From an uncultured Chloroflexia bacterium (lineage in GTDB: Bacteria; Chloroflexota; Limnocylindria; QHBO01), in NCBI GenBank assembly GCA_963695195.1, contig CAVOGE010000007.1:831756-895755 (forward strand): a DNA stretch of 64,000 nucleotides, read 5' to 3'. The notes beneath the pieces were generated by a model. It was not told where the DNA came from and made no database searches. It saw only the letters and a list, made by a program, of their open reading frames with translations. The first letter of the stretch is position 1, and the number at the start of each line of letters is the position of its first letter. A program made the translations under genes and the position numbers. Of the stretch, positions 1-42,362 are shown piece by piece.

Positions 1-607
1 GGGCGCGATGCGCTGGTTCGCGGCCAGCCACGATTTCCAGGCGATCAGCCTGCGCTACTTCAACGTCGCCGGGTCGACCGACCGCAATGGTGAGGACCAC
101 GATCCGGAGACGCACCTGATGCCGCTCGTCCTGCGGGTGGCGGCCGGCGAGGCGACGCACGTCCAGATCTTCGGCCAGGACTACCCGACCCCCGACGGCA
201 CCTGCATCCGCGACTTCATCCACGTCCGCGACCTTGCCGCCGCGCACCTGCTGGCCCTTGAGGCGACCGGAGAGGGCGACCCGTCGTTCGAGGTCTACAA
301 CCTCGGCTCGGCCGCCGGCTTCAGCGTGCGCGAGGTTGTCGAGGCGGCCCGCAAGGTGACGGGGCGCGCCATCCCGGCACGTGTCGTCAAACGGCGCAGC
401 GGCGACCCGCCGGTCCTGGTCGCCTCGTCACGCCGGGCCCGTCGGGAACTCGGCTGGCAGCCGCAGCATTCCAAGCTCGAGCAGATGCTGGCCGACTCAT
501 GGGCGTGGAAACTGAGGCATCCGAACGGCTACGCGCGCCCGCAGCGGACCGATGGAGCCCCCGTCGATAGGCCGCCCTCTCGACCGGGGACGCCCGCTCC
601 CGTCTAG
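1..607 (+). CDS. galE: UDP-glucose 4-epimerase, C-terminal ~200 aa (5' end lies upstream of window)
   Basis: ORF 8..607 translation carries GalE C-terminal motifs (YFNVAGS, PETHLMP, DGTCIRDFIHVRDLAAAH). Reading frame is open to window start. Confidence 0.85.
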   Translation, partial: GAMRWFAASHDFQAISLRYFNVAGSTDRNGEDHDPETHLMPLVLRVAAGEATHVQIFGQDYPTPDGTCIRDFIHVRDLAAAHLLALEATGEGDPSFEVYNLGSAAGFSVREVVEAARKVTGRAIPARVVKRRSGDPPVLVASSRRARRELGWQPQHSKLEQMLADSWAWKLRHPNGYARPQRTDGAPVDRPPSRPGTPAPV

Positions 608-1032
608 CCGGCCGCCCGAACGCAGTCGGCGCAGCGACCGTAGAAGTCGAGGCGTGCGTCGTCGATCACGAAGCCGCGCTCGTCGGTCAGGCGCTGCACG
701 ATCGGCTGAACGAACGACTCGCCGATCTCCTCCACCTTCCCGCAGGTGCGACACGACAGGTGATGGTGGTGAGCCGGCTCGCAGGCGACGTAGGCCGAGA
801 CATGCCCGTCGAGCTCGAGTCGCCGGGCGACTCCGGCGCCGACGAGGGCATCCAGGCTTCGGAACACGGTCGCGCGTCCGATCCCCCGACGCCGTCCGGC
901 CGCAGTCCAGACTTCCTCGGCGGTGAGCTGGCGACCAGCCGCGATGAGCGCCTCGGCGATCCGCAGGCGCTGGGGTGTCGGGCGCTCCCCGGCGGCGCGC
1001 AGGCGCTCGGACACCCCGGCCGCGCCGCTCAC
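604..1032 (-). CDS. Fur-family metalloregulator, probable Zur
   Basis: C-terminal 136 aa of the long ORF 604..3027 has the Fur fold signature (HHHHLSCRTCGKVEEI ... GRCADC). GTG start at 1032 overlaps the upstream ZIP gene stop as GTGA. Adjacent to a zinc permease. Confidence 0.8.
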   Translation of the reverse strand: MSGAAGVSERLRAAGERPTPQRLRIAEALIAAGRQLTAEEVWTAAGRRRGIGRATVFRSLDALVGAGVARRLELDGHVSAYVACEPAHHHHLSCRTCGKVEEIGESFVQPIVQRLTDERGFVIDDARLDFYGRCADCVRAAG

Positions 1033-1781
1033 ACGCTCGCCCCAATAACGCCGGCAAAGACCGAGAAGCCGTAGATCGCCGCCACGCCCGCCAGGGTCGC
1101 GACCACGATCCAGCGCGACCGGTCGGAACGGTGCGCCTCCGGCAGGAGCTCGGCCGCCCCGATGTACAGGAAGAAGCCGGCAAAGACGCCCAGCATCCCC
1201 CCGAGCACCTGGCCGGGGATCGGCAGCGCCAGACCCAGCAGCACGCCGAACACCGGTGCGATGGCCACCACGCTGACCCAGCGGTAGGCGACCGATATCG
1301 GCGTCCGCGAGGCAAGCAGCAGGCTGACGATTCCGATCCCGTCGCTGAAGCGGTGCACGATCACCACCGCACCGATCACCAGGCCGATGCCACCTCCCAC
1401 GGCCAGCGCCGCAGCGACGGCGACGCCGTCCAGGAAGCTGTGCAGGCTCATCCCCGACGCCCCGATGATGCCGACATGGCGGTGCGCGGCGTCCTCGTGG
1501 TCGAGCTCGGCCGCCGTCTCGTGGCCGACGTGCAGCGTGGTCAGCTTCTCGATCGCGTAGAACAGGAGGAAGCCGACCGCCGTGAAGACCATCGCCAGGT
1601 CGAGCGAGCCGAGCTGCTCCACCGATTCGGGGATCAGGTCGAAGTAGGCTGCCCCGATCCGGATCCCGGCCCCGACCGCGATGATCACGCCGACCGAGGT
1701 CGTCGCGCGCAGCGCCAGGAGTCCACCCGCAAGGGCGGAGAGCAGCGCGCCGGCCGAGACGAGGATGGCGGTAAGGGCCAT
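1029..1781 (-). CDS. ZIP-family metal (zinc) permease, ZupT-like
   Basis: 250-aa polytopic membrane protein with His-rich loop (HVGHETAAELDHEDAAHRH) and ZIP-like TM helices. ATG at 1781 (MALTAILVSAG). Confidence 0.8.
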   Translation of the reverse strand: MALTAILVSAGALLSALAGGLLALRATTSVGVIIAVGAGIRIGAAYFDLIPESVEQLGSLDLAMVFTAVGFLLFYAIEKLTTLHVGHETAAELDHEDAAHRHVGIIGASGMSLHSFLDGVAVAAALAVGGGIGLVIGAVVIVHRFSDGIGIVSLLLASRTPISVAYRWVSVVAIAPVFGVLLGLALPIPGQVLGGMLGVFAGFFLYIGAAELLPEAHRSDRSRWIVVATLAGVAAIYGFSVFAGVIGASV

Positions 1782-1856
1782 GGTGAGACTGAGTATCACG
1801 TCGTCCCGGCGGGTCGTCAACCCTCCCCGTGGTAGCATCACCTTCGAGTTCACCCC

Positions 1857-3174
1857 GTTGGAGCCCCGTTTGCCAGAAGCTGAATCTCCGCCCGCGCGCC
1901 GCCGACACCGAGCGCCGCGCCGCACGACCCCGGTCCCCACCGAGTCCGTCGCCCCCGAGTCCGCCACCAGCAACGGCGACGCTCCAGCCACCGACATCGA
2001 CGCCGAGGCCTCCCCGCTGCTCGCCGCCGTGCTGGCCGCCCAGCGCAGCCACCGCTTCGGCGAGATCGAGCTGCCGGTCACCATCGCGCGGGCCATCGAG
2101 AAGATGGGGTTCGTCACGCCCACCGAGGTGCAGGCGCGGGCCATCGGTCCCCTGCGCGAGGGGAAGGACCTGATCGGCCAGGCCCAGACCGGTACCGGCA
2201 AGACCGCCGCCTTCGGCATCCCGATCATCGAGAAGATCGACCCGTCGGCCCGCTACGTGCAGGCCCTCGTCCTGACACCCACGCGCGAGTTGTGCGTGCA
2301 GGTGACCGAGGAGATCAATCGGCTCGGCGAGTTCCGCAACATCACCGCGGTGGCCATCTACGGCGGCTCGAGCATGGACCGCCAGATCACGGCCCTCCAC
2401 CGCGGAGCGCAGATCGTGGTCGGCACCCCGGGGCGCGTGCTCGACCTGATCCGCCGGGGCGAGCTCCATCTCGGCAGCGTGCAGACGGTGATCCTCGACG
2501 AGGCCGACCGGATGCTCGACATGGGCTTCATCGTCGATGTCGAGACGATCCTGGCGCGCTGCCCGCGGCAGCGGCAGACCGCGCTCTTCAGCGCCACCAT
2601 GCCGTACGCCATCCTGCGCATCTGCGATCGCTTCATGGACAAGGGCGCGGAGCACATCATCGTGCGCCCCGAGATGCGCACCGTCGAGACGGTCCGGCAG
2701 CTCGTCTACTTCGTCGCGGAGCAGGACAAGGTGGCGACGCTGATGGAGCTGACCGAGACGTTCGGCTTCGATCGGCTGCTCGTCTTCCGACACACCCAGA
2801 TCGGCGTGGACCGATTGACCGCAACCCTCTCTCGCAAGGGCCGGAACGTGGCCGCGCTGCACGGCGGACTCAGCCAGCGGGAGCGCGATCGGACGCTTGC
2901 CGATTTCAAATCGGGGAAGATCCAGTACCTGGTGGCGACCAACGTGGCCTCGCGCGGCCTGGACATCGCCGACCTGCCGTTCGTCCTCAACTACGACATC
3001 CCCGAGGACGCCGAGACGTATGTCCACCGGATCGGGCGCACGGCGCGCGCCGGGCGCACCGGGACCGCCATCAGCCTCATCGGCGAATGGGACATCGCCG
3101 CCTGGGAGCAGATCCGCACCCAGGTCGGTGCCGAGATCGAAGAGGGGCAGCTCCGTCTCTACGATCGGCGCTGA
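1857..3174 (+). CDS. DEAD-box ATP-dependent RNA helicase
   Basis: Q-motif (FGEIELP...TPTEVQ), Walker A AQTGTGKT, DEAD box (ILDEADRML), SAT, HRIGRTARAG. Start uncertain (TTG 1857 or GTG ~2031); the track ORF starts inside the antisense ZIP gene. Confidence 0.8.
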
Positions 3175-3209
3175 ACGTTTCGGCCGACCCCGCGCTAGGC
3201 TTCATCGGC

Positions 3210-3896
3210 ATGCCTGATCCCGACGCCATTCATCCGCAGCTGGCCACCTACGCCGCCGTCGTCATCACCAGCGTCGACTGGCTCTTCGAGCCGTACTGGG
3301 CCGGCGACCGCCTGGTCGCACGGCTGGCCGATGGCCGGGTCGATCTGACCGATGAGGCCGGCGAGCCGGCTCGCCCCGAATTCGCCGAAGCCGCCGAGCT
3401 GCTGGCCGCCGCGATCGACGCCGATGCTGCGGTGATCGACGGGGTGTGGACCGCTCAGCCGTTCGTCGGTGACGGGAGCAGCGCACGGCGACTGGCCGAG
3501 ACGCTCGCCGAGGAGGGGCTTGGCGAGGAGGTGCCGGATCCGGCCGAGCTTGAGACGCGTCGCGCGTTCGTGGCGTTCGACATCGTGGAGCTCGACGGGA
3601 AGTCCCTCACCGATGTCCCGTACCAGGAGCGCCGCCGCCTGCTCGCCTCGGTGGTCGCCGAGAACGTTCGGGTGCGCATCTCGCCGGCGGTCAAGCAGCC
3701 GCTCGGGCCCTGGCTGCACGCCTGGCGCGGCAATGGCTTCACCCACTACGTGGCCAAGCACATGAACTCGCGCTACCGGCCCGGCGAACGGGTCGATGAC
3801 TGGCTGATCGTCTCGGCTGCGGCGGAGCGCGGCCCCACGATGGTCGGGCGCATGTTCGGCCAGCGGCCGCGGAAGCTGCGCCGGATCGAGGATTGA
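3210..3896 (+). CDS. LigD-ligase-domain-like nucleotidyltransferase protein with degenerate active site (pseudo-ligase)
   Basis: 228 aa. Aligns to the LigD LIG nucleotidyltransferase core: HPQLAT (cf. EPMLAT), WLFEPYWAGDR (cf. W.FE.KWDGYR: Lys->Tyr, Asp->Ala), motif III AFVAFDIVELDG, motif IV GNGFTHYVAK, motif V WLIVS (both Lys lost). No OB domain. ATG at 3210. Confidence 0.7.
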   Translation: MPDPDAIHPQLATYAAVVITSVDWLFEPYWAGDRLVARLADGRVDLTDEAGEPARPEFAEAAELLAAAIDADAAVIDGVWTAQPFVGDGSSARRLAETLAEEGLGEEVPDPAELETRRAFVAFDIVELDGKSLTDVPYQERRRLLASVVAENVRVRISPAVKQPLGPWLHAWRGNGFTHYVAKHMNSRYRPGERVDDWLIVSAAAERGPTMVGRMFGQRPRKLRRIED

Positions 3897-4732
3897 CCCG
3901 GGCAGCGGCAGCCCCGCCCCGCCCAAGCCTGCGGAAGCTCGCCGCCGACCGGCGTGCCCGCCGGGTCCGTGTCGAGCAGGTGCTGGAGCAGCTGGGCGAG
4001 CGGTACCACCATCCACGCTGGGGCGGACCGCGCCTCGACGCGGCCGCCGAGCTGGTGCTCACGATCCTCTCGCAGAACACGGCCGATACGAACTCGTTCC
4101 GCGCCTTCACCGCGCTCCGCAAGCGCTACCCATCGTGGGACGCGGTGCTCGCCGCCCCGACCGACGAGCTGGTCGAGGTGATCCGCCCCGGTGGCCTGGC
4201 GCCGACCAAGGGGCCGCGTATCCAGGCGGTGCTAGCCGAGGTTCACGCGGAGACCGGCGGCACCTGGGACCTCTCCTTCCTTGGTGATTGGCCGCTCGAG
4301 CAGGCGCGCGACTGGCTCGTCTCCCTGCCGGGGATCGGGCGCAAGACAGCGGCGATCGTCCTGCTCTTCAACTTCGGCCGCCCGGCCCTGCCGGTGGATA
4401 CCCACGTCCACCGCGTCGCGCTGCGGCTCGGCCTGCTTCCCCCGAAGACCGACGTGCTCCGGGCGCACGACCTGCTGGAGGCCGCGCTGCAACCCGAGGA
4501 GATGTACCCGTTCCACGTCGAGCTGATCCGCCACGGCCGCGACACGTGTCGAGCCCCGCGACCGATCTGCGGCCTCTGCCCGCTGACCGGCCTGTGCCCC
4601 TACTACGCGCAGGTGCTCCGTGGAAAGGCGGCGATCAATGCGCCACCTCGAGGGCTGCCGGGTGACGGGTCAGAGCCGCGTTACCACGACGAGCTGATCC
4701 ATGGGTGGGCGCCGCCCGAGGCTCGCGGCTGA
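3893..4732 (+). CDS. Endonuclease III-like HhH-GPD DNA glycosylase with C-terminal 4Fe-4S cluster
   Basis: HhH-GPD core (ILSQNTADTNSFRAF, LPGIGRKTAAIVL) and Cys cluster CRAPRPICGLCPLTGLC. TTG start at 3893 overlaps the upstream stop (TTGA). Confidence 0.8.
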   Translation: MTRAAAAPPRPSLRKLAADRRARRVRVEQVLEQLGERYHHPRWGGPRLDAAAELVLTILSQNTADTNSFRAFTALRKRYPSWDAVLAAPTDELVEVIRPGGLAPTKGPRIQAVLAEVHAETGGTWDLSFLGDWPLEQARDWLVSLPGIGRKTAAIVLLFNFGRPALPVDTHVHRVALRLGLLPPKTDVLRAHDLLEAALQPEEMYPFHVELIRHGRDTCRAPRPICGLCPLTGLCPYYAQVLRGKAAINAPPRGLPGDGSEPRYHDELIHGWAPPEARG

Positions 4733-5463: not shown

Positions 5464-5570
5464 CTGGTAAGACTCGGGCCCCGTCCGCGCCAGTTGCCGA
5501 AGTAGCTCAGTGGTAGAGCAACGGTTTCGTAAACCGTCGGTCGAGGGTTCGAGTCCCACCTTCGGCTCCA
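5464..5570 (+). repeat. Direct repeat copy 1 (tRNA-Thr plus ~32 nt upstream flank)
   Basis: ~97% identical to 10780..10885. A second shorter block 5349..5414 matches 10626..10689. Confidence 0.85.
5496..5570 (+). tRNA. tRNA-Thr (anticodon CGT), CCA encoded
   Basis: Cloverleaf: GCCGAAG acceptor, D-loop AGCTCAGTGGTAGAGC, anticodon loop TTCGTAA, T-loop TTCGAGT, 3' CTTCGGC-T-CCA. One A-A mismatch in the T-stem relative to the copy at 10811. Confidence 0.9.
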
Positions 5571-5674
5571 TCCCCTCACGCTCATGTGGCAATCGGCGCA
5601 CCGAGACCCCCCTCGCCCCCTTAGGTGGTCGTTTCCTGCGAGACCTGGCGGACTACGATGGCGCCGTGCCTCCC

Positions 5675-7219
5675 ATGACCCGAATCGGATTGCGATCGCT
5701 GATCCGCGTTGCTGTGATCGTGCTCGCTGCGCTCGTCGCGTCGGTCGCGGGAGTGTTCGTGCTCGAGGAGAGTGCGGGCGTGCGCGATGGATCCCTCGTC
5801 TTCCTGCTGGCCGTGGCGCTGGTGGCGTACGTGCATGGAAGCTGGGCAGCGGTCGCCACCGCGCTGGGCGCCTTCCTCACCTACAACTTTATCTTTCTGC
5901 CCCCCGAGTTCACGTTCTTCGTGTCCGATCCTCAGCATCTTCTGACGCTTGGCTTGCTCCTGGTCGTTGGTGTCGCGATCGGGCGATTGACCGGCTTGCA
6001 GCGGGACCAGGCGCAGCGTTCGGAGCGCCGCGAGCGGGAGGCTCGCGCCCTCTACGGCGTCAGCCGGGCCATATCCTCGGGCAAGCACATGAGGGATGCC
6101 CTGCCGGCGCTGGTCAGCGGCCTGGCCGCCGATGTCCGGATGACCCGGGTCTGGGTAGGCCTCGGCTCGACCTGGGCGCAGGAGCAGGTGGTTGGGTCGA
6201 CGAACCCAACCGTCGATGCCCGTGCGCCGGGTCCGCATAGCCTCCTGCGCCGCGGTCCCGACCAGGGACAGGTAGCGTGGGTCCGACTGAGCCCGCCAGC
6301 TGCTTCCGCAGGACGGAGAGACAGGCTGGCGCTCTACCGCCTCGAGCTTGTCGATGGCGACGAGACGATCGGTTCCCTTTGGGCAACGCGCGATCCCAGT
6401 CTGGCGCTCCCAACCGGTGAGGAGACACGGCTGCTAGCCGCCGCAGCGGACCAGATCGGGCAGGGAATCGTGCGCGACCGTCTCGAGGAGCAGGCCACCG
6501 AGCTTGAGGTTGCCCGACGTAGCGAGGAGCTGAAGGCGGCCCTCCTGGACTCCGTGTCCCATGACCTGCGCACGCCGCTCTCCACCATCCGTGCCACGGC
6601 GGGAACTCTTGCCGACCCAACGGTCGCGCTCGCCCTCGAGGAAGCTCGCGCCATGGCTCGCGAGATCGACGCGGAGGCCGCGCGCCTTGCCAGCTTGGTG
6701 AGTGGCCTCCTGGACATGAGCCGGATTGCGGGAGGCGCTCTTCAGACGAGCCCTGAGCCGATGCCGGTATCGGAGGTCGTTGAGTCAGCCTTGCACCGCG
6801 CGCGCGGTAGGCTTGGCCACCGGCTGATCCAGGTGGCGATTCCGGACGACCTGCCGTTGGCTGCAGTCGATCCGGTGCTAGGCAACCAGGTCATCGATAA
6901 TCTGCTCGAAAACGTGAGCGTGCACACGTCACCCGATGCTCTCCTGCGCATATCTGCTGCGCGAGATGGCGAGGCCGTCAGAGTGCGGGTAGAGGATGCC
7001 GGGCCTGGAGTCCCGCCCGAGGCGATGGTCCACCTCTTTGAGAAGTTCTACCGCGTGCCTGCCCGGCCTCGAGCTGCGGGCCACGGGACGGGCCTGGGGC
7101 TTGCCATGGTGAAGGGCCTGGCTGAAGCGATGGGCGGATCGGTGGCCGCATCTCGCAGCGCGCTCGGTGGCCTCGCGATTGACGTGTGGCTGCCGCAGGC
7201 TGCCGTGCCACCGGAATGA
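5675..7219 (+). CDS. KdpD-like sensor histidine kinase lacking the N-terminal KdpD/Usp domains (DUF4118 TM region, GAF-like, HisKA, HATPase)
   Basis: TM region matches KdpD membrane core (LTYNFIFLPPEFTFFVSDPQHLLTLGLLLVV). HisKA H-box (SHDLRTPLSTI) and G-boxes (GTGLGLAMV). Start ATG 5675, downstream of the tRNA. Confidence 0.8.
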   Translation: MTRIGLRSLIRVAVIVLAALVASVAGVFVLEESAGVRDGSLVFLLAVALVAYVHGSWAAVATALGAFLTYNFIFLPPEFTFFVSDPQHLLTLGLLLVVGVAIGRLTGLQRDQAQRSERREREARALYGVSRAISSGKHMRDALPALVSGLAADVRMTRVWVGLGSTWAQEQVVGSTNPTVDARAPGPHSLLRRGPDQGQVAWVRLSPPAASAGRRDRLALYRLELVDGDETIGSLWATRDPSLALPTGEETRLLAAAADQIGQGIVRDRLEEQATELEVARRSEELKAALLDSVSHDLRTPLSTIRATAGTLADPTVALALEEARAMAREIDAEAARLASLVSGLLDMSRIAGGALQTSPEPMPVSEVVESALHRARGRLGHRLIQVAIPDDLPLAAVDPVLGNQVIDNLLENVSVHTSPDALLRISAARDGEAVRVRVEDAGPGVPPEAMVHLFEKFYRVPARPRAAGHGTGLGLAMVKGLAEAMGGSVAASRSALGGLAIDVWLPQAAVPPE

Positions 7220-35283: not shown

Positions 35284-37008
35284 ATGGTCCGCTCCGCACC
35301 CTTCGCCGAGTTCGCCCGCGTCGCCGATGCGGTCGCCTCCACCACCTCCAAGCTGGCGAAACGCGACGCGCTGGCGGCGTACCTGCGGGCGCTGGCGCCC
35401 GACGACCTGCAGGCGGCGGTGACCTTCTTCGCCGGACGCCCGCTCCCGGGAGCCGCCGATCGGCTGGGCCTCGGCTGGGTTCAACAGTCGCAGTCACTCG
35501 CCGCCGCGGCCCAGGCCGACCCCGCGGCGCTCCACGCGGCCTACCTGCGCCACTCCGATTTCGGCGACGCGGCCGCCGAGCTGTTGGCGCATGCGGCCCC
35601 CACCGGCCATCCTCTGACGCTCGGAGCGGTCCGCGACGCGTTCCGGGCCATGAGCGAGACCTCTTCCACCGAGGCGCGCGTGGCGGAGATGACGCGCCTC
35701 TTCGAACGTGCGTCGCCGGAGGAGGCGCGCTACGCCGCACGGATCGCGGCGCGCGAGCTGCGCATCGGCCTGCGGGAGGGGCTGCTGGAGGAGGCGATCG
35801 CCGCTGCCTTCCAGCGGCCGCTCGGTGCGGTGCGCCAGGCGCACATGCTGCTCGGCGAGCCCGGGGAGGCGGCCGCGCTGGCCAGGGACGACCGGCTGGC
35901 CGAGGCCGCGCTCCATCTCGGCCGACCGATCCGCTTCATGCTCGCCACCCCGGTGGCCGATGCCGACGAGGTGATGCGCCGGGTCGGCGACGAGGCGTGG
36001 ATCGAGGACAAGTACGACGGCATCCGCGCCCAGCTGCATCTCGTCGCCGGCGAGGCCCCGCGCCTCTTCTCGCGCGACCTCAACGAGATCACCGCCTCGT
36101 TCCCCGAGGTCGCCCAGGCGGCCGCCGGCCTGGCGCAGAAGATGGTGATCGACGGGGAGCTGGTCCCGTATCGGTCCGGATCGGTGCTCGACTTCGCGAG
36201 TCTGCAGACGCGCCTTGGCCGGGTTGCGCCGAGCCCCGAGCTGATCGCCGAGGTGCCGGTCGTGCTGGTCGCATTCGACCTCCTGCATCTGGCAGGTCGC
36301 GACCTTCTGGAGGTGCCGCTGCGTGAGCGCCGTGCCGCGCTCGAGGCGCTCAGTCTGCCCCTGCTGACCGAAGGTCGGTTCCTCCTCTCGCACCTCGCGG
36401 CGGCGCGATCGGCCGACGAGGTGGAGCGTCACTTCGACGATGCCCGTGAGCGCCGCAACGAGGGCCTGATGGTCAAGGACCCCGATTCGGTCTACCAGCC
36501 CGGGCGGCGCGGGCTCGGCTGGCTGAAGCTGAAGAAGGCGCTCGCCACGCTCGACTGCGTGGTGGTGGGGGTCGAGTGGGGCCACGGCAAGCGGCGCGGC
36601 GTCCTCTCCGACTACACCTTCGCCGTGCGCTCGCCCGACGGCGAGTCGCTGCTCACCATTGGCAAGGCCTACACCGGCCTGACCGATGCGGAGATCGCAG
36701 CCATGACAGAACGATTCAAGGCCACGACGCTCCAGGACTTCGGTCGCTACCGGACCGTCGTCCCCGAGGTGGTGGTGGAGATCGCCTTCGACCGAATCAT
36801 GCGCTCGAAGCGGCACGACTCAGGTTTCGCGATGCGCTTCCCCCGCATCGTCCGCATCCGCGATGACAAGGCACGGGCCGAAATCGATGACCTCGCCACC
36901 GTGGAGAAGCTCTTCACCGCACAGGCGAGCGGCCGGATCCTGCTGGCACGTGGGCCGCGCGGGGAGATGGAGCGCATCACCGCCACCGGTGAGACGGATG
37001 GGGACTAG
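35284..37008 (+). CDS. ATP-dependent DNA ligase, LigB/Lig1-type (N-terminal DNA-binding domain, nucleotidyltransferase, OB)
   Basis: Intact motif I EDKYDGIRAQL, motif III/IV/V (FDLLHLAG, EGLMVKD, WLKLKK). Confidence 0.85.
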   Translation: MVRSAPFAEFARVADAVASTTSKLAKRDALAAYLRALAPDDLQAAVTFFAGRPLPGAADRLGLGWVQQSQSLAAAAQADPAALHAAYLRHSDFGDAAAELLAHAAPTGHPLTLGAVRDAFRAMSETSSTEARVAEMTRLFERASPEEARYAARIAARELRIGLREGLLEEAIAAAFQRPLGAVRQAHMLLGEPGEAAALARDDRLAEAALHLGRPIRFMLATPVADADEVMRRVGDEAWIEDKYDGIRAQLHLVAGEAPRLFSRDLNEITASFPEVAQAAAGLAQKMVIDGELVPYRSGSVLDFASLQTRLGRVAPSPELIAEVPVVLVAFDLLHLAGRDLLEVPLRERRAALEALSLPLLTEGRFLLSHLAAARSADEVERHFDDARERRNEGLMVKDPDSVYQPGRRGLGWLKLKKALATLDCVVVGVEWGHGKRRGVLSDYTFAVRSPDGESLLTIGKAYTGLTDAEIAAMTERFKATTLQDFGRYRTVVPEVVVEIAFDRIMRSKRHDSGFAMRFPRIVRIRDDKARAEIDDLATVEKLFTAQASGRILLARGPRGEMERITATGETDGD

Positions 37009-39068: not shown

Positions 39069-39929
39069 ATGGCACGCTCAATGTGGCGCGGGGCGATCCA
39101 GTTCGGGCTGGTGACGATCCCGGTCAAGCTCTACCTGGCAACCGAGAGCACCTCGATCGGCTTCAACATGCTGCACGCCGATTGCCTGAATCGGATCCAG
39201 ATGAAGATCTACTGCCCGCACCACGACGAGGTGGTTCCCCGCTCCGATACCGTGCGCGGGTACGAGTGGAGCAAGGGCCGCTACGTGGTGATGACCGACG
39301 CGGAGATGGACGCCGTCCCGCTCAAGACGGTGCGCGCCATCGAGATCGAGATGTTCGTGGACGCAAAGCGCGAGGCCCACGAGGCGCAGTTCGTCAAGCA
39401 GGCCTACTACCTGGAGCCCGATCCGATGGGTGCCAAGGCGTTCGAGCTGCTCCGCCAGGTGCTCGCCGAGCAGGGCAAGACGGCCATCTGCAAGATCGTG
39501 CTGAAGGACCGCGAGCAGCTCGCGGCGCTGAACCCGTTCGACACCACCATGCTGCTGACCACACTCCACTGGCCAGACGAGGTTCGCTCGCACACCGAGC
39601 TCAACCTGCCGACCGAGCCGATCGCCGTGAAGCCCGCCGAGCGGGCCATGGCCGAGCAGCTGATCGCCTCGATGACCGGTGAATTCTCGCCGGCCGACTA
39701 CCGTGACGACTATCGGGCGGCCCTCATGTCGGTGATCGAAGCCAAGGTTGGCGGCGAGGAGCCGGTGCCCGCCCAGCGTGTCGAGCCGACCAAGATCGGC
39801 GACCTCATGGCGGCACTCGAGGCCAGCGTGGCTGCCGCCCGCGAGGCGCGACGGAGTGCTGCCGTTGAGCCGCCCTCGGAGACCGCCGACGCCGACCAGC
39901 GGCCGGCGCGCCGCCGCCGGTCCGCCTAG
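39069..39929 (+). CDS. ku: Ku protein (non-homologous end joining)
   Basis: MWRGAIQFGLVTIPVKLY N-terminus, Ku core, basic C-terminal tail. Confidence 0.9.
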   Translation: MARSMWRGAIQFGLVTIPVKLYLATESTSIGFNMLHADCLNRIQMKIYCPHHDEVVPRSDTVRGYEWSKGRYVVMTDAEMDAVPLKTVRAIEIEMFVDAKREAHEAQFVKQAYYLEPDPMGAKAFELLRQVLAEQGKTAICKIVLKDREQLAALNPFDTTMLLTTLHWPDEVRSHTELNLPTEPIAVKPAERAMAEQLIASMTGEFSPADYRDDYRAALMSVIEAKVGGEEPVPAQRVEPTKIGDLMAALEASVAAAREARRSAAVEPPSETADADQRPARRRRSA

Positions 39930-39938
39930 CACCGCGTC

Positions 39939-40640
39939 GTGGCCGCCGAGCAGCTGCCGCTGCCGGTTGCGCCGCGTGCTCCGACTGGCGATGGCCAGGC
40001 GCGGCGTCTCCCGGCCCGCATCTCGCCGATGCTGCCATCGGCGGTGGCGTCTCCGTTTGACGACCCCGACTACCTCTTCGAGGCGTGGTGGCCCGGCGCT
40101 CGGGCGATCGCGTCGTGCGAGCGCGGCCTCCTGCGGCTGCAGGTAGCCGGCATGGCCGACGCCGAGGCGGCGTTCCCGGAGCTGGCCACGCTTCCCGCCC
40201 AGCTGGCCGAGGACGGCACGATGCTCGACGGCACGCTCCTGATCCTCGACGCCGACGGGCGTCCCGACGCCGATCTGCTGCGGCAGCGACTTGCCGGACT
40301 CGGTCGTCCCGGGCGTCCGGCCTATGTCGCCAGCGATCTGCTGTGGGCCGGCGGGCAGTCGGTGCGGCTCAACGCCTTCCGTGTGCGGCGCGCATGGCTC
40401 GAAGCGATCCTGGTGCCCGGCGACCGCGCCACGGTCGGGCGCGCCTACCGTGGCGACGGCACCCTGCTGGCGGAAGCGCTGGCCTCGATGGGCGTTGACG
40501 GCATCTCCGCGCGGCATCTCGGAGCCCGGTACCGGTCCGGCTTCGCCGGCGACGCGTGGTTGCGCGCCCCCATCGCGCCGGCCCAGCCGCGCCCGCGTCC
40601 AACGCTGGCGCTCATCCTCCGCCTGCCGCTCGGCGAGTAG
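39939..40640 (+). CDS. Second LigD-ligase-domain-like protein with degenerate active site (paralog of 3210..3896)
   Basis: ISPMLPS (cf. EPMLAT), YLFEAWWPGARAIA (cf. W.FE.KWDGYR: Lys->Trp, Asp->Pro), SDLLWAGG (motif III), DGISAR (motif IV Lys->Arg), AWLRA (motif V Lys lost). 233 aa, no OB domain. Starts 10 nt after Ku stop. Confidence 0.7.
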   Translation: MAAEQLPLPVAPRAPTGDGQARRLPARISPMLPSAVASPFDDPDYLFEAWWPGARAIASCERGLLRLQVAGMADAEAAFPELATLPAQLAEDGTMLDGTLLILDADGRPDADLLRQRLAGLGRPGRPAYVASDLLWAGGQSVRLNAFRVRRAWLEAILVPGDRATVGRAYRGDGTLLAEALASMGVDGISARHLGARYRSGFAGDAWLRAPIAPAQPRPRPTLALILRLPLGE

Positions 40641-40649
40641 CCCAGCGGC

Positions 40650-41279
40650 TCAGCGGCCCGTGTCGCGCTCACCGAGCAGCCTGAGGGCATGCTCGAGCTT
40701 GGTGAGTGGGTCCCGCTGCAGCCCGACGACATCGAGGAGCGCGGCATCGAGCTGCGCAACCAGCGCATCGTCGGGCGCCTCGCCGGCCCGGCACTCCACC
40801 TCCACCACCATCAGCCGGCCGCGCGCCTCGCCGTTGCGCATCACCGTGACCTCGTCGAGCGACAGGAGCCCGATCCGTCGAGCGCCCGCCAGGACGACCC
40901 GCTCCCGGCGGTGCTGGAGCAGGCTGAATCGCTCGACGAGGCCGAGCCGGGAGGCCGCCGCCTCGCCACCCAGCGCCACGAGCAGGTCACGAGCGGGGGA
41001 AGGGGGCCATCTGCCGAGGCTCGTCTCGGCCCCGGCCGGACCCTCGACCTCCGGACGGAGGTGGAGCGCATCCCCCGGCTCGTGGCGCGCTGGTCCCTTG
41101 AGCGACAGCGTCGTCAGCTCGCCGCGGGTCCGCAGCCGGCATGCCCAGCCCGCCGCGGCCAGGCGCAGGTCCGGGGTATCGAGGTAGCGGTCGAGCTCAT
41201 CTACCGAAGTGCGTCGGCCCGAGCGCGACGGGTCCGAGCGAATCGACGCCGACGAGCGCGCGCAGCGGTGCAACATCAT
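40650..41279 (-). CDS. CYTH-like domain protein (triphosphate tunnel metalloenzyme fold), start uncertain
   Basis: ELDRYL, CRLRTRGELTTLSLKGP, RLMVVEVE motifs resemble CYTH. Possible GTG start near 41204. Confidence 0.45.
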   Translation of the reverse strand: MMLHRCARSSASIRSDPSRSGRRTSVDELDRYLDTPDLRLAAAGWACRLRTRGELTTLSLKGPARHEPGDALHLRPEVEGPAGAETSLGRWPPSPARDLLVALGGEAAASRLGLVERFSLLQHRRERVVLAGARRIGLLSLDEVTVMRNGEARGRLMVVEVECRAGEAPDDALVAQLDAALLDVVGLQRDPLTKLEHALRLLGERDTGR

Positions 41280-41324: not shown

Positions 41325-42362
41325 TCACTCGGCGTAGCGGGCCGCGGCACCGCGGGTCGCGACAGCGACGGCCTCGCGCAACGCGGGCGGCTCGAGCACC
41401 TCGACCGCGTCGCCCCACGACAGCACCCATGGCCGGATCTCGACGATGCCAGCGACCGTCACGGTCAGCTCGAGCCGACCGTCGGGGAGATCGGCGATCC
41501 GCTGCGATCGGTGCCAGATCGACTCGCGCACGCGCTGCGCCACCGAGGCCTCGAAGCGCAGCGTGACGGTCTCTGGGGCCGTGGTGTCCGACGACCAGAT
41601 CCCCCACGAGTGCGCCAGCCATCGGTCGGGGTCGAAATCGGCGGGCACCTCGTATCGGTCAGCGGTCAGGGTCGAACTGAGGATCCGCTCCACCTTGTAG
41701 GTCCGCATCGCCTCAACGACTTCGTCAAAGCCGATCAGGTAGACCGATCGGCCGGCCGCATCGGGCTCCAGGAAGTAGGGTCGGACTCGCGCCCGCCTGC
41801 GCTCCCCACCGCTCGCCTCGTACGCGAACTCGACGACGCGACCGTCCGCCCACGCCTGCGCGACGTGCGCGAAGTTGCGGGCGAACGGCTCATTTGGACC
41901 GGCGCGACCGACCGCCAGCATCGTCGCGGCAACGTGCCGCGCGATCGGCTGGGGAAGCAGGTCGGCGAGCTTGGTGAAGGCGCTGACCACCGCCTGGTCG
42001 TACTCGTCGCTCCAGCGGGCGATCAGCCGCGAAGCGAGGAAGAGGACGACCGCCTCGGGAAGGGAGAGGCGCAGCGGCGGCAGGAAGTACTTCTTTTCGA
42101 TCCCGTAGCGACCCTTGCCGGCCTGGAAGATCGGCATCCCAAGCTCATCTTCGAGGGCGCGGATGTCCCGATACACGGTGCGGGTGGTCATGCCCGTCAG
42201 GTCTGCGATCTCCGAGACGGGAACCCCCGCGTCGTTGTGCCCGCGGCTGTACAGGATCGATGCCACGGCCAGCAGGCGCGCCAGGCGGTCGCGCTTGCGG
42301 AAGCTGCCCTCGTCCCCGTCGGCGTCGCCCCAGCGCGCCCAGTCGTCGCGCTCGTCGCTCAC
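41325..42362 (-). CDS. HTH-WYL-WCX transcriptional regulator (PafBC/YafY family)
   Basis: N-terminal HTH (VSEIADLTGMTTRTVYRDIRAL), central WYL domain, C-terminal extension. ATGA overlap with rhodanese gene. Confidence 0.8.
   Translation of the reverse strand: MSDERDDWARWGDADGDEGSFRKRDRLARLLAVASILYSRGHNDAGVPVSEIADLTGMTTRTVYRDIRALEDELGMPIFQAGKGRYGIEKKYFLPPLRLSLPEAVVLFLASRLIARWSDEYDQAVVSAFTKLADLLPQPIARHVAATMLAVGRAGPNEPFARNFAHVAQAWADGRVVEFAYEASGGERRRARVRPYFLEPDAAGRSVYLIGFDEVVEAMRTYKVERILSSTLTADRYEVPADFDPDRWLAHSWGIWSSDTTAPETVTLRFEASVAQRVRESIWHRSQRIADLPDGRLELTVTVAGIVEIRPWVLSWGDAVEVLEPPALREAVAVATRGAAARYAE

What the first reader, a model, noticed from the sequence alone, without database searches (positions are those of the whole stretch)
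1857..4732. Paralogous degenerate ligase-domain protein embedded between a DEAD-box helicase and an Nth-like glycosylase
A second LIG-core homolog (3210..3896) shares the architecture of the Ku-linked copy but differs in which residues are lost. Motif I is WLFEPYWAGDR (Lys->Tyr, Asp->Ala). Motif III (FDIVELDG) and the motif IV lysine (YVAK) are retained. Motif V is WLIVS. It is co-directional in one block: helicase, 35-nt gap, ligase-like, TTGA overlap, glycosylase. So the genome holds two independently degenerated LigD-LIG paralogs, each wired to a different DNA-repair module (base excision repair here, NHEJ at 39.9 kb). That argues for a retained non-enzymatic function.
Basis: partly seen in the sequence, partly recalled or inferred. 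Interest (0 to 1): 0.75.

Follow-up and report, generated by a model that had tools for sequence, protein, structure and literature searches.

The report
Catalytically dead LigD-type ligase domain protein
This gene encodes a conserved DNA-ligase-like protein that has lost every residue needed to join DNA. It belongs to a large undescribed family in one class of soil Chloroflexota, and its position next to a DNA-repair glycosylase results from a recent gene deletion, not from a functional link.

Summary
Window 3210-3896 encodes a 228-aa protein (LL1) with the nucleotidyltransferase fold of the LigD ligase domain. It has no OB domain and no catalytic lysine. One correction: FDIVELDG is motif IIIa. 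The true motif III glutamate is also lost (IDGV), as are the motif IV glutamate and both motif V lysines.

LL1 is not a decaying relic. dN/dS is 0.11-0.17, 45 positions are invariant, and lysine is never found at motif I in the 120 closest homologues. With a more divergent branch (LL3-type) it forms one positional orthologue group, apparently confined to Candidatus Limnocylindria.

In 68 of 71 evaluable loci a three-gene metabolic cassette separates LL1 from the glycosylase. Only the window's own sub-clade has deleted it, so the link to base excision repair is incidental. The upstream helicase is a DEAD-box (RNA) helicase. It sits next to LL1 in 67 of 70 loci but is absent in LL3-type lineages, which also lack LL1's conserved basic C-terminal tail.

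The Ku-adjacent paralogue (LL2) is real. Each paralogue is closer to active LigD than to the other, which fits separate degeneration.

Most likely LL1 is a non-catalytic binding module. Its partner is unproven.

The parts
1870..3174 (+). DEAD-box (RNA) helicase with a basic Arg/Pro-rich N-terminal extension. The start is probably TTG 1870 (alternative TTG 1858; the mechanical ORF starts at 1681).
   Evidence: PF00270 167 bits and PF00271 101 bits. Best NCBIfam matches are CshA 431, DbpA 384 and RhlE 320 bits, all below their cut-offs. Orthologues begin 'LP[ED]...'. It lies immediately upstream of LL1 in 67 of 70 evaluable loci.
3175..3209 (+). 35-nt spacer between helicase and LL1
   Evidence: No terminator-like or promoter-like site on this strand.
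3210..3896 (+). LL1: 228-aa LigD-type nucleotidyltransferase (adenylation) domain only, catalytically dead, no OB domain
   Evidence: The Met1 start is conserved in orthologues. dN/dS 0.11-0.17.
3285..3311 (+). Motif I remnant FEPYWAGDR. E27 and R34 are kept (100% in the family). The nucleophile Lys is replaced by Tyr and Asp by Ala.
3432..3452 (+). Motif III remnant VIDGVWT. Asp is kept; the ribose-binding Glu is replaced by Val.
   Evidence: Role of the motif III Glu: PMC7470946.
3453..3560 (+). Family-specific acidic insertion (36 aa, pI 4.1, low pLDDT) between motifs III and IIIa, with conserved P84, F85, G87, E115 and R117
3564..3599 (+). The adenine-stacking Phe is present here but is Ile/Leu/Val in 85% of the family.
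3741..3761 (+). Motif IV remnant THYVAKH. The metal-binding Glu is replaced by Thr. The Lys (K183) is invariant.
3798..3815 (+). Motif V remnant DWLIVS. Both lysines are lost.
3816..3893 (+). Conserved basic C-terminal tail (AAAERGPTMVGRMFGQRPRKLRRIED). It is present only in the LL1-type branch, the branch that has the helicase upstream.
3893..4732 (+). HhH-GPD / endonuclease III-like glycosylase (GIGRKT, VDTH, 4Fe-4S Cys motif). Its TTG start overlaps the LL1 stop.
   Evidence: The N-terminal peptide and the TTGA junction are conserved in L012-L014.
39069..39929 (+). Ku (for comparison)
   Evidence: TIGR02772 272 bits, above the cut-off of 150
39939..40640 (+). LL2: the second lysine-less LigD-NTase-only paralogue, 9 nt after Ku
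35284..37008 (+). Intact three-domain ATP-dependent DNA ligase (LigB type), the only ligase homologue in the window with all three ligase domains (N, M, C)
   Evidence: Pfam N+M+C domains. Same position in L007 and L008.

Best explanation
What LL1 is (shown). LL1 is a pseudoenzyme. It has the adenylation (nucleotidyltransferase) domain of a LigD-type ATP-dependent DNA ligase. It has lost the OB domain and every residue that handles the nucleophile, the phosphates and the metal: K481, D483, R501, E530, E613, K635 and K637 in M. tuberculosis LigD numbering. It cannot self-adenylylate or seal nicks by the canonical mechanism. It is nevertheless kept under purifying selection as a single-locus orthologue group across Candidatus Limnocylindria.

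What it probably does (inferred). It works as a non-catalytic binding or adaptor module. In the LL1-type branch the most likely partner is the DEAD-box RNA helicase encoded 35 nt upstream. That branch alone carries both the adjacent helicase and a conserved 26-aa basic C-terminal tail. The acidic core (net charge about -14) and basic tail would act as an accessory, targeting or regulatory subunit of the helicase, not as a DNA end-joining factor.

The glycosylase (shown). The abutting Nth-like glycosylase is a neighbour by accident. A three-gene cassette was deleted in this lineage.
For: Fold and homology.

Loss of catalytic residues:
- Residues mapped through the 1VS0 alignment and the residue roles given in PMC8656161.
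- All eleven tabulated positions are 96-100% conserved in 45 active LigD representatives.
- In 120 LL1 homologues K481 is Tyr/Ala/Cys/Ser (0% Lys), E530 is Ile/Val, E613 is Thr/Ser and K635 is Ile/Glu/Gln.
- There is no OB domain: the protein ends 30 aa after motif V.

Selection: dN/dS 0.11-0.17 against close relatives. 45 positions are invariant in a 49-sequence alignment spanning 60-90% identity.

Family size and range: about 57 lysine-less clusters among the top 150 representatives at 50% identity. At least 2301 clusters at 90% identity for the LL3-type. Named sources are Limnocylindria or Chloroflexota.

Positional orthology of LL1 and LL3 types.

Helicase link: adjacent in 67 of 70 evaluable loci, with one gene inserted in the other 3. 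No terminator between the genes. The tail is 30 aa after the motif V Trp in the LL1-type against 8 aa in the LL3-type, which lacks the helicase.

Glycosylase adjacency is derived.
Against: - The helicase link rests on synteny within one class in which long-range gene order is conserved anyway.
- The co-occurrence of tail and helicase is effectively one evolutionary event.
- LL3-type orthologues do without the helicase, so the ancestral function cannot depend on it.
- No interaction was modelled or measured.
- E27, R34 and K183 (the adenine and ribose contacts of real ligases) are invariant, so nucleoside or nucleotide binding is not excluded.
- The acidic charge is not diagnostic: the intact ligase's NTase domain in the same window is also acidic (pI 5.5).
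Confidence: 0.45

Rival explanations
1. LL1 is a non-enzymatic LigD paralogue dedicated to base excision repair. It works with the co-translated Nth-like glycosylase, for example by holding or handing over the nicked or abasic product.
For: The TTGA overlap and a conserved glycosylase N-terminus occur in the window and L012-L014. LL and the glycosylase are co-directional within the same block in 42 of 46 loci that extend far enough. LigD ligase domains have a documented role in base excision repair in vitro (PMC4770248).
Against: Three unrelated metabolic genes separate them in 68 of 71 loci and in all LL3-type loci. The glycosylase is translationally coupled to glycerate kinase in relatives. 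The whole region, including HNH, the CCA-adding enzyme and an epimerase, is syntenic, so distance-4 synteny carries little information.
Confidence: 0.1
2. LL1 keeps a cryptic activity that does not need the ligation residues. One candidate is the 5'-dRP/AP lyase activity reported for LigD ligase domains. Another is adenine nucleoside or nucleotide binding, making it a sensor.
For: In B. subtilis LigD, the K24A, K189A, K206A, K208A and E184A mutants lose ligation but keep dRP lyase activity (PMC4770248). The adenine and ribose contacts E27, R34 and K183 are invariant, and F123 is present in the window protein.
Against: - Only one lysine (K183) is conserved in the family, and the LL2 family averages 0.2 lysines per protein.
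- The adenine-stacking aromatic is replaced by aliphatic residues in 85% of LL1 homologues and all LL3 homologues.
- The substituted pocket positions vary freely, as expected for an unused pocket.
- The OB domain that helps LigD hold DNA is absent.
Confidence: 0.12
3. LL1 is an accessory of the local end-joining machinery. It acts with LL2, Ku and the LigB-type ligase 32-36 kb away, for example as an LL1-LL2 heterodimer or as a regulator or recruiter of the ligase.
For: The two paralogues co-occur about 40 kb apart here and on another genome's contig (L008 and L079). An intact three-domain ligase but no LigD POL or PE domain lies near Ku. A natural fusion of a LigD phosphoesterase domain to a lysine-less NTase domain (P0379) shows that the dead domain can serve as a module beside a repair enzyme.
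Against: LL1 is never adjacent to Ku in the 80 loci. LL1 and LL2 are only 26-29% identical, with differently remodelled pockets. The P0379 fusion is not next to Ku.
Confidence: 0.13
4. LL1 is a decaying pseudogene or a mis-called ORF with no function.
For: All catalytic residues are gone, and the ORF sits in a 70% GC genome where long spurious ORFs are common.
Against: dN/dS 0.11-0.17, 45 invariant residues, a conserved start and length, thousands of homologues and a confident fold.
Confidence: 0.02

Closest known systems
Ligase (LIG) domain of M. tuberculosis LigD (Rv0938; PDB 1VS0, 6NHX, 6NHZ), nucleotidyltransferase subdomain
   Same: It is the best sequence match (E 1e-13) and a top structural match. 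The strand order and motif scaffold are shared (FE-x-W-x-G-x-R, DG, FD-L-LDG, AK, SRY-PG, W). E479, R486, D528, D560 and K618 are retained.
   Different: LL1 has no OB domain or motif VI. K481, D483, R501, E530, E613, K635 and K637 are all replaced. LL1 has a 36-aa acidic insertion and a new basic tail. It is free-standing and not fused to POL or PE domains.
Stand-alone two-domain bacterial ATP-dependent ligases (LigC / LigD-like; NCBIfam PRK07636, PRK08224, TIGR02779)
   Same: Small free-standing proteins with a homologous adenylation domain.
   Different: Those keep the NTase and OB domains and all six motifs. LL1 scores 51-71 bits against cut-offs of 228-337 bits.
Ligase-associated DEXH helicase (Lhr-type) damage-response operon (TIGR04121 helicase + TIGR04120 ligase)
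   Same: Superficially alike: a helicase gene followed by a ligase-family gene on one strand.
   Different: The helicase here is a DEAD-box RNA-helicase type (431 bits to CshA against 52 bits to TIGR04121, whose cut-off is 850). LL1 scores 21.6 bits to TIGR04120 (cut-off 400) and is inactive.
Canonical bacterial Ku-LigD end-joining operon
   Same: LL2 sits directly after Ku, as LigD often does.
   Different: The Ku neighbour is a lysine-less NTase-only protein. No POL or PE domain is present in the window. An intact LigB-type ligase lies about 2 kb upstream of Ku. LL1 itself is not Ku-linked.
Pseudoenzymes in general (reviewed in PMC10211241)
   Same: A conserved fold with missing catalytic motifs, kept under selection.
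   Different: I found no description of a DNA-ligase-derived pseudoenzyme. The searches returned only ubiquitin E3 'pseudoligases'.

Membership tests
ATP-dependent DNA ligase, LigD LIG type (PF01068 / TIGR02779) | Adenylation (nucleotidyltransferase) domain fold and sequence homology | tested here: met
   PF01068 45.8 bits against a cut-off of 26.2. 1VS0 at E 1e-13. Foldseek E 5e-15 to ligase NTase domains.
ATP-dependent DNA ligase, LigD LIG type (PF01068 / TIGR02779) | Motif I KxDGxR with the lysine nucleophile | tested here: not met
   YWAGDR in the window. 0% Lys in 120 homologues against 100% in 45 active LigDs.
ATP-dependent DNA ligase, LigD LIG type (PF01068 / TIGR02779) | Motif III Glu, motif IV Glu and motif V Lys-x-Lys | tested here: not met
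   E530 to Val, E613 to Thr, K635 to Ile, K637 to Ser.
ATP-dependent DNA ligase, LigD LIG type (PF01068 / TIGR02779) | C-terminal OB-fold domain with motif VI | tested here: not met
   The protein ends 30 aa after motif V. No PF04679 hit.
ATP-dependent DNA ligase, LigD LIG type (PF01068 / TIGR02779) | Curated NCBIfam score cut-off | tested here: not met
   TIGR02779 71.2 bits against 227.75. PRK09632 89 bits against 989.
ATP-dependent DNA ligase, LigD LIG type (PF01068 / TIGR02779) | Self-adenylylation and nick sealing | not testable with these tools
   Needs purified protein and labelled ATP.
Ligase-associated DEXH helicase operon (TIGR04121 / TIGR04120) | Lhr-type DEXH helicase plus an active LigB-type ligase | tested here: not met
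   Helicase 52 bits against a cut-off of 850. LL1 21.6 bits against 400.
DEAD-box RNA helicase (upstream gene) | DEAD and Helicase_C domains | tested here: met
   PF00270 167 bits and PF00271 101 bits. No NCBIfam equivalog cut-off is reached.
Endonuclease III / HhH-GPD glycosylase (downstream gene) | HhH-GPD domain, catalytic Lys and Asp, 4Fe-4S cysteine motif | tested here: met
   PF00730 47.3 bits against 26.2. GIGRKT, VDTH and C-x6-C-x2-C-x5-C read directly from the sequence. TIGR01083 109 bits is below its cut-off of 211.7.
Bacterial Ku-LigD end-joining pair (for LL2) | Ku adjacent to a catalytically competent LigD | tested here: not met
   Ku is met (272 bits against 150). Its neighbour LL2 has Trp at the motif I lysine position in 100% of 120 homologues.

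The most novel reading that the evidence does not exclude
A DNA-repair ligase fold has been exapted twice in one bacterial class into non-catalytic subunits. LL2 would be a Ku partner in a LigD-less end-joining system that uses a LigB-type ligase. LL1 would be an accessory or targeting subunit of a DEAD-box RNA helicase, acting through its lineage-specific basic tail. That would move a DNA-ligase domain into RNA metabolism.
Probability: 0.2. Interest if true: 0.7.

Novelty: new variant of a known kind. Interest (0 to 1): 0.5.

Why it matters
Annotation pipelines name these proteins 'bifunctional NHEJ protein LigD' or 'ATP-dependent DNA ligase'. Genome surveys would therefore score Limnocylindria, a very abundant soil lineage, as having LigD when the proteins cannot ligate.

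Recognising two conserved dead-ligase families changes how end joining in this class should be read: Ku plus a dead LIG domain plus a LigB-type ligase, with no POL or PE domain nearby.

It also gives a clean natural case for asking what a ligase adenylation domain does besides catalysis.

Finally, it is a caution about operon inference. The striking overlap with the glycosylase gene comes from a deletion.

Tried and rejected
- Neighbour-joining trees with bootstrap, meant to decide between one and two losses of the lysine, gave no support either way. One run had saturated distances that produced invalid values. I relied instead on profile-profile scores and on loop lengths.
- Exact look-up of the window's own LL1 and LL2 proteins found no record, so the source genome could not be read beyond the window.
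- The AlphaFold-database fold library was unavailable.
- Net charge as an argument against DNA binding was dropped as non-decisive. The intact ligase's NTase domain in the same window is also acidic.
- PADLOC gave no hit for LL1 or LL2, and PHROGs gave only a weak generic ligase hit. A defence-system reading has no support.
- The context of the phosphoesterase + dead-NTase fusion (P0379) was checked for Ku. None was nearby.
- Literature searches for a lysine-less or pseudo DNA ligase found nothing relevant.
- An N-terminal proline nucleophile of the Fpg/Nei type was considered for 'MPDPD'. It was rejected because positions 2-8 are not conserved.
- Tyr29 as a site for AMP attachment was rejected because the position is Ala, Cys, Ser or Leu in relatives.
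Full report
**The sequence**

The window is about 70% GC throughout. Three co-directional genes occupy 1870-4732:
- A DEAD-box helicase. The mechanical ORF runs 1681-3174. Orthologues begin 'LP[ED]', which places the start at TTG 1870.
- A 35-nt spacer, then the 228-aa ORF 3210-3896, here called LL1.
- An HhH-GPD glycosylase at 3893-4732, whose TTG start overlaps the LL1 stop as TTGA.

LL1 matches Pfam PF01068 above its cut-off (45.8 bits, E 7.5e-12). Its best solved relative is the ligase domain of M. tuberculosis LigD (1VS0/6NHX, E 1e-13). An AlphaFold model built on 49 homologues (pLDDT 85.7, pTM 0.80) matches ligase adenylation domains at Foldseek E 5e-15 to 1e-12.

**What is lost and what is kept**

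I used the HMMER alignment to 1VS0, the residue roles summarised in PMC8656161 and PMC7470946, and a common-profile alignment of four groups. The groups were 45 active LigD representatives, 120 LL1 homologues, 117 LL3-type homologues and 120 LL2 homologues.

| M. tuberculosis LigD residue | Role | LL1 (window) | LL1 family |
|---|---|---|---|
| E479 | contacts adenine N6 | E27 | 100% Glu |
| K481 | nucleophile | Y29 | Tyr/Ala/Cys/Ser, 0% Lys |
| D483 | motif I | A31 | variable |
| R486 | binds ribose | R34 | 100% Arg |
| R501 | binds gamma-phosphate | E49 | variable |
| D528 | motif III | D77 | 100% Asp |
| E530 | motif III, binds ribose | V79 | Ile/Val |
| F559 | motif IIIa, stacks on adenine | F123 | Phe in only 11% |
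| E613 | motif IV, binds metal | T178 | mostly Thr/Ser |
| K618 | motif IV, contacts adenine N1 | K183 | 100% Lys |
| R629 | binds ATP phosphates (active-site basic residue) | R194 | variable |
| K635 / K637 | motif V | I200 / S202 | K635 position Ile/Glu/Gln; K637 not tabulated |

In active LigDs all the tabulated positions are 96-100% conserved.

The true motif III glutamate is gone.

There is no OB domain. The chain ends 30 residues after the motif V tryptophan.

No alternative lysine is available near motif I. The protein has four lysines and only K183 is conserved. I had no model coordinates to measure distances.

**It is a functional gene and part of a large family**

The closest 120 homologues (60-100% identity, 225-245 aa) never carry lysine at motif I. 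A 49-sequence alignment has 45 invariant positions, including the start methionine region and a C-terminal tail. dN/dS against close relatives is 0.11-0.17.

An exhaustive profile search of 1.84 billion representatives found about 57 lysine-less, OB-less clusters of roughly 200-260 aa among the top 150 hits. These have the pattern [VIF]EPxWxGxR, DG[YVI], xxxxxK, DWAxx. A profile of this more divergent 'LL3-type' set retrieved at least 2301 clusters at 90% identity.

Every informative source name is Candidatus Limnocylindria, Limnocylindrales or Chloroflexota. A few MAG titles name other phyla, but those contigs show the same synteny and 60-74% identity, so they look like binning errors.

**Genomic context**

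I fetched 80 species-level loci and located neighbours by tblastn.
- The DEAD-box helicase lies directly upstream of LL1 in 67 of 70 evaluable loci. One gene is inserted in the other three.
- Directly downstream, 68 of 71 loci carry a 407-490-aa gene with weak GT2 similarity, then Usp+GT2, then glycerate kinase. The HhH-GPD glycosylase follows only at +4.4 to +6.7 kb.
- Only the window and its 88-90% identical relatives L012-L014 have LL1 abutting the glycosylase. The TTGA overlap is therefore the scar of a lineage-specific deletion of a three-gene metabolic cassette.
- In relatives the glycosylase gene overlaps the glycerate kinase stop instead. Its coupling to the upstream gene carries no functional message.

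LL3-type genes occupy the same chromosomal position: HNH, CCA-adding enzyme, epimerase, then LL, the GT2-like gene, Usp+GT2, glycerate kinase and HhH-GPD. They have no helicase. LL1 and LL3 types are therefore positional orthologues, and the helicase joined in one sub-lineage.

That same sub-lineage, and only it, has the conserved basic tail ERxPSxxGRLFGQRPKKxRRIED. The tail is 30 aa after the motif V Trp, against 8 aa in LL3-type proteins.

No promoter-like or terminator-like site on the coding (+) strand separates the three window genes.

**The Ku-linked paralogue**

LL2 (39939-40640) follows Ku by 9 nt. It is 29% identical to LL1. It forms its own conserved family with Trp at the lysine position in all 120 homologues. 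Ku-LL2 adjacency recurs in L007 and L008, with an intact three-domain ligase a few kb upstream. In the window that ligase is at 35284-37008. No LigD polymerase or phosphoesterase domain is detectable anywhere in the window.

Profile-profile (hhalign) scores:

| Pair | Score |
|---|---|
| LL1 - LL3 | 286 |
| LL1 - active LigD | 249 |
| LL3 - active LigD | 229 |
| LL2 - active LigD | 226 |
| LL1 - LL2 | 101 |
| LL2 - LL3 | 102 |

LL2 also keeps a LigD-like spacing (29 aa against 26 aa) between motifs III and IIIa, where LL1 has 40 aa (read from the sequences). Distance trees could not settle the question.

The substituted pocket residues are fixed in LL2 (Trp, Pro, Thr, Ser, Asp, Arg, Ala, Arg) but vary freely in LL1 and LL3. 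This suggests a remodelled, constrained pocket in LL2 and an unused one in LL1.

**Mechanism**

Shown:
- LL1 cannot perform canonical ligase chemistry.
- LL1 is under selection.
- Its glycosylase neighbour is incidental.

Inferred:
- LL1 acts by binding, not catalysis.
- The best available candidate partner in this lineage is the DEAD-box helicase: adjacency in 96% of loci and co-appearance of the basic tail. The helicase has a short C-terminus and a basic N-terminal extension.

The inference is weak for three reasons. Gene order is conserved over long distances in this class. The tail-helicase coincidence is a single evolutionary event. LL3-type orthologues function without the helicase.

Alternatives kept open:
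- An end-joining accessory acting with LL2, Ku and the LigB-type ligase.
- A residual lysine-independent dRP lyase activity. In B. subtilis LigD, mutants of all ligation lysines keep that activity (PMC4770248).
- Adenine-nucleoside binding, since E27, R34 and K183 are invariant.

A natural fusion of a LigD phosphoesterase domain to a lysine-less NTase domain (P0379) shows that the dead domain can serve as a module next to a working repair enzyme.

**Comparison with known systems and novelty**

LL1 is a homologue of the LigD ligase domain, but it fails four of the five defining features of an active member that could be tested here (see the membership table). It is not the Lhr-type ligase-associated helicase system and not a defence-system component. 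I found no published description of a lysine-less DNA ligase paralogue family.

I rate it a new variant of a known kind: a pseudoenzyme derived from LigD. It is of moderate interest. Its main practical consequence is that 'LigD' annotations in this abundant soil class are misleading.

Noticed in passing
window 35284-37008 (+), with 39069-40640: An intact three-domain (N+M+C) ATP-dependent ligase of LigB type lies about 2 kb upstream of Ku-LL2. No LigD POL or PE domain is found in the window. The same layout occurs in L007 and L008. This suggests a LigD-less Ku system.
   Followed up: partly
window 40650-41279 (-) and 41325-42362 (-): A CYTH-domain gene and a WYL/WCX (PafBC-like) HTH regulator converge on the 3' end of LL2. 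The WYL regulator is also present next to LL2 in L007 and L008.
   Followed up: no
between LL1 and HhH-GPD in L001, L002, L005, L015-L091 (absent at window 3896/3893): A three-gene cassette (a 407-490-aa gene with weak GT2 similarity, Usp+GT2, glycerate kinase) resembles a glycosyl-glycerate solute pathway. It is conserved in 68 of 71 loci and deleted in the window's sub-clade.
   Followed up: partly
protein P0379 (loci L095, L096 6001-7020): A metagenomic protein fuses a LigD 3'-phosphoesterase domain to a lysine-less, OB-less ligase NTase domain. It is not next to Ku; an ABC transporter lies downstream.
   Followed up: partly
protein P0290 cluster (LL3-type, 233 aa, 10 members): It has lysine at the motif I position (YEPKWSGVR) but still lacks D483, E530 and the motif V lysines. 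This is an apparent reversion or a chance lysine within the dead family.
   Followed up: no
protein P0371 (277 aa, 981-nt contig): CarD N- and C-terminal domains are fused to the C-terminal half of an LL3-type protein. It is possibly an assembly chimera.
   Followed up: no
window 5496-5567 (+): A tRNA gene (Rfam 68.7 bits) overlaps the start of a long mechanical ORF (5510-7219, histidine-kinase-like by eye, not tested). That ORF's true start must lie further downstream.
   Followed up: no
window 604-1781 (-) and 1792-1820 (-): FUR and ZIP zinc-transporter genes run divergently from the helicase, and the only promoter-like site in the region points into ZIP. This FUR-ZIP pair is present in some LL1 loci and absent in others.
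   Followed up: no
L008 and L079 (same contig_25578, 182 kb): The LL1 and LL2 loci lie about 40 kb apart on one contig in another genome, as in the window (36 kb). Long-range synteny is therefore conserved in this class.
   Followed up: no
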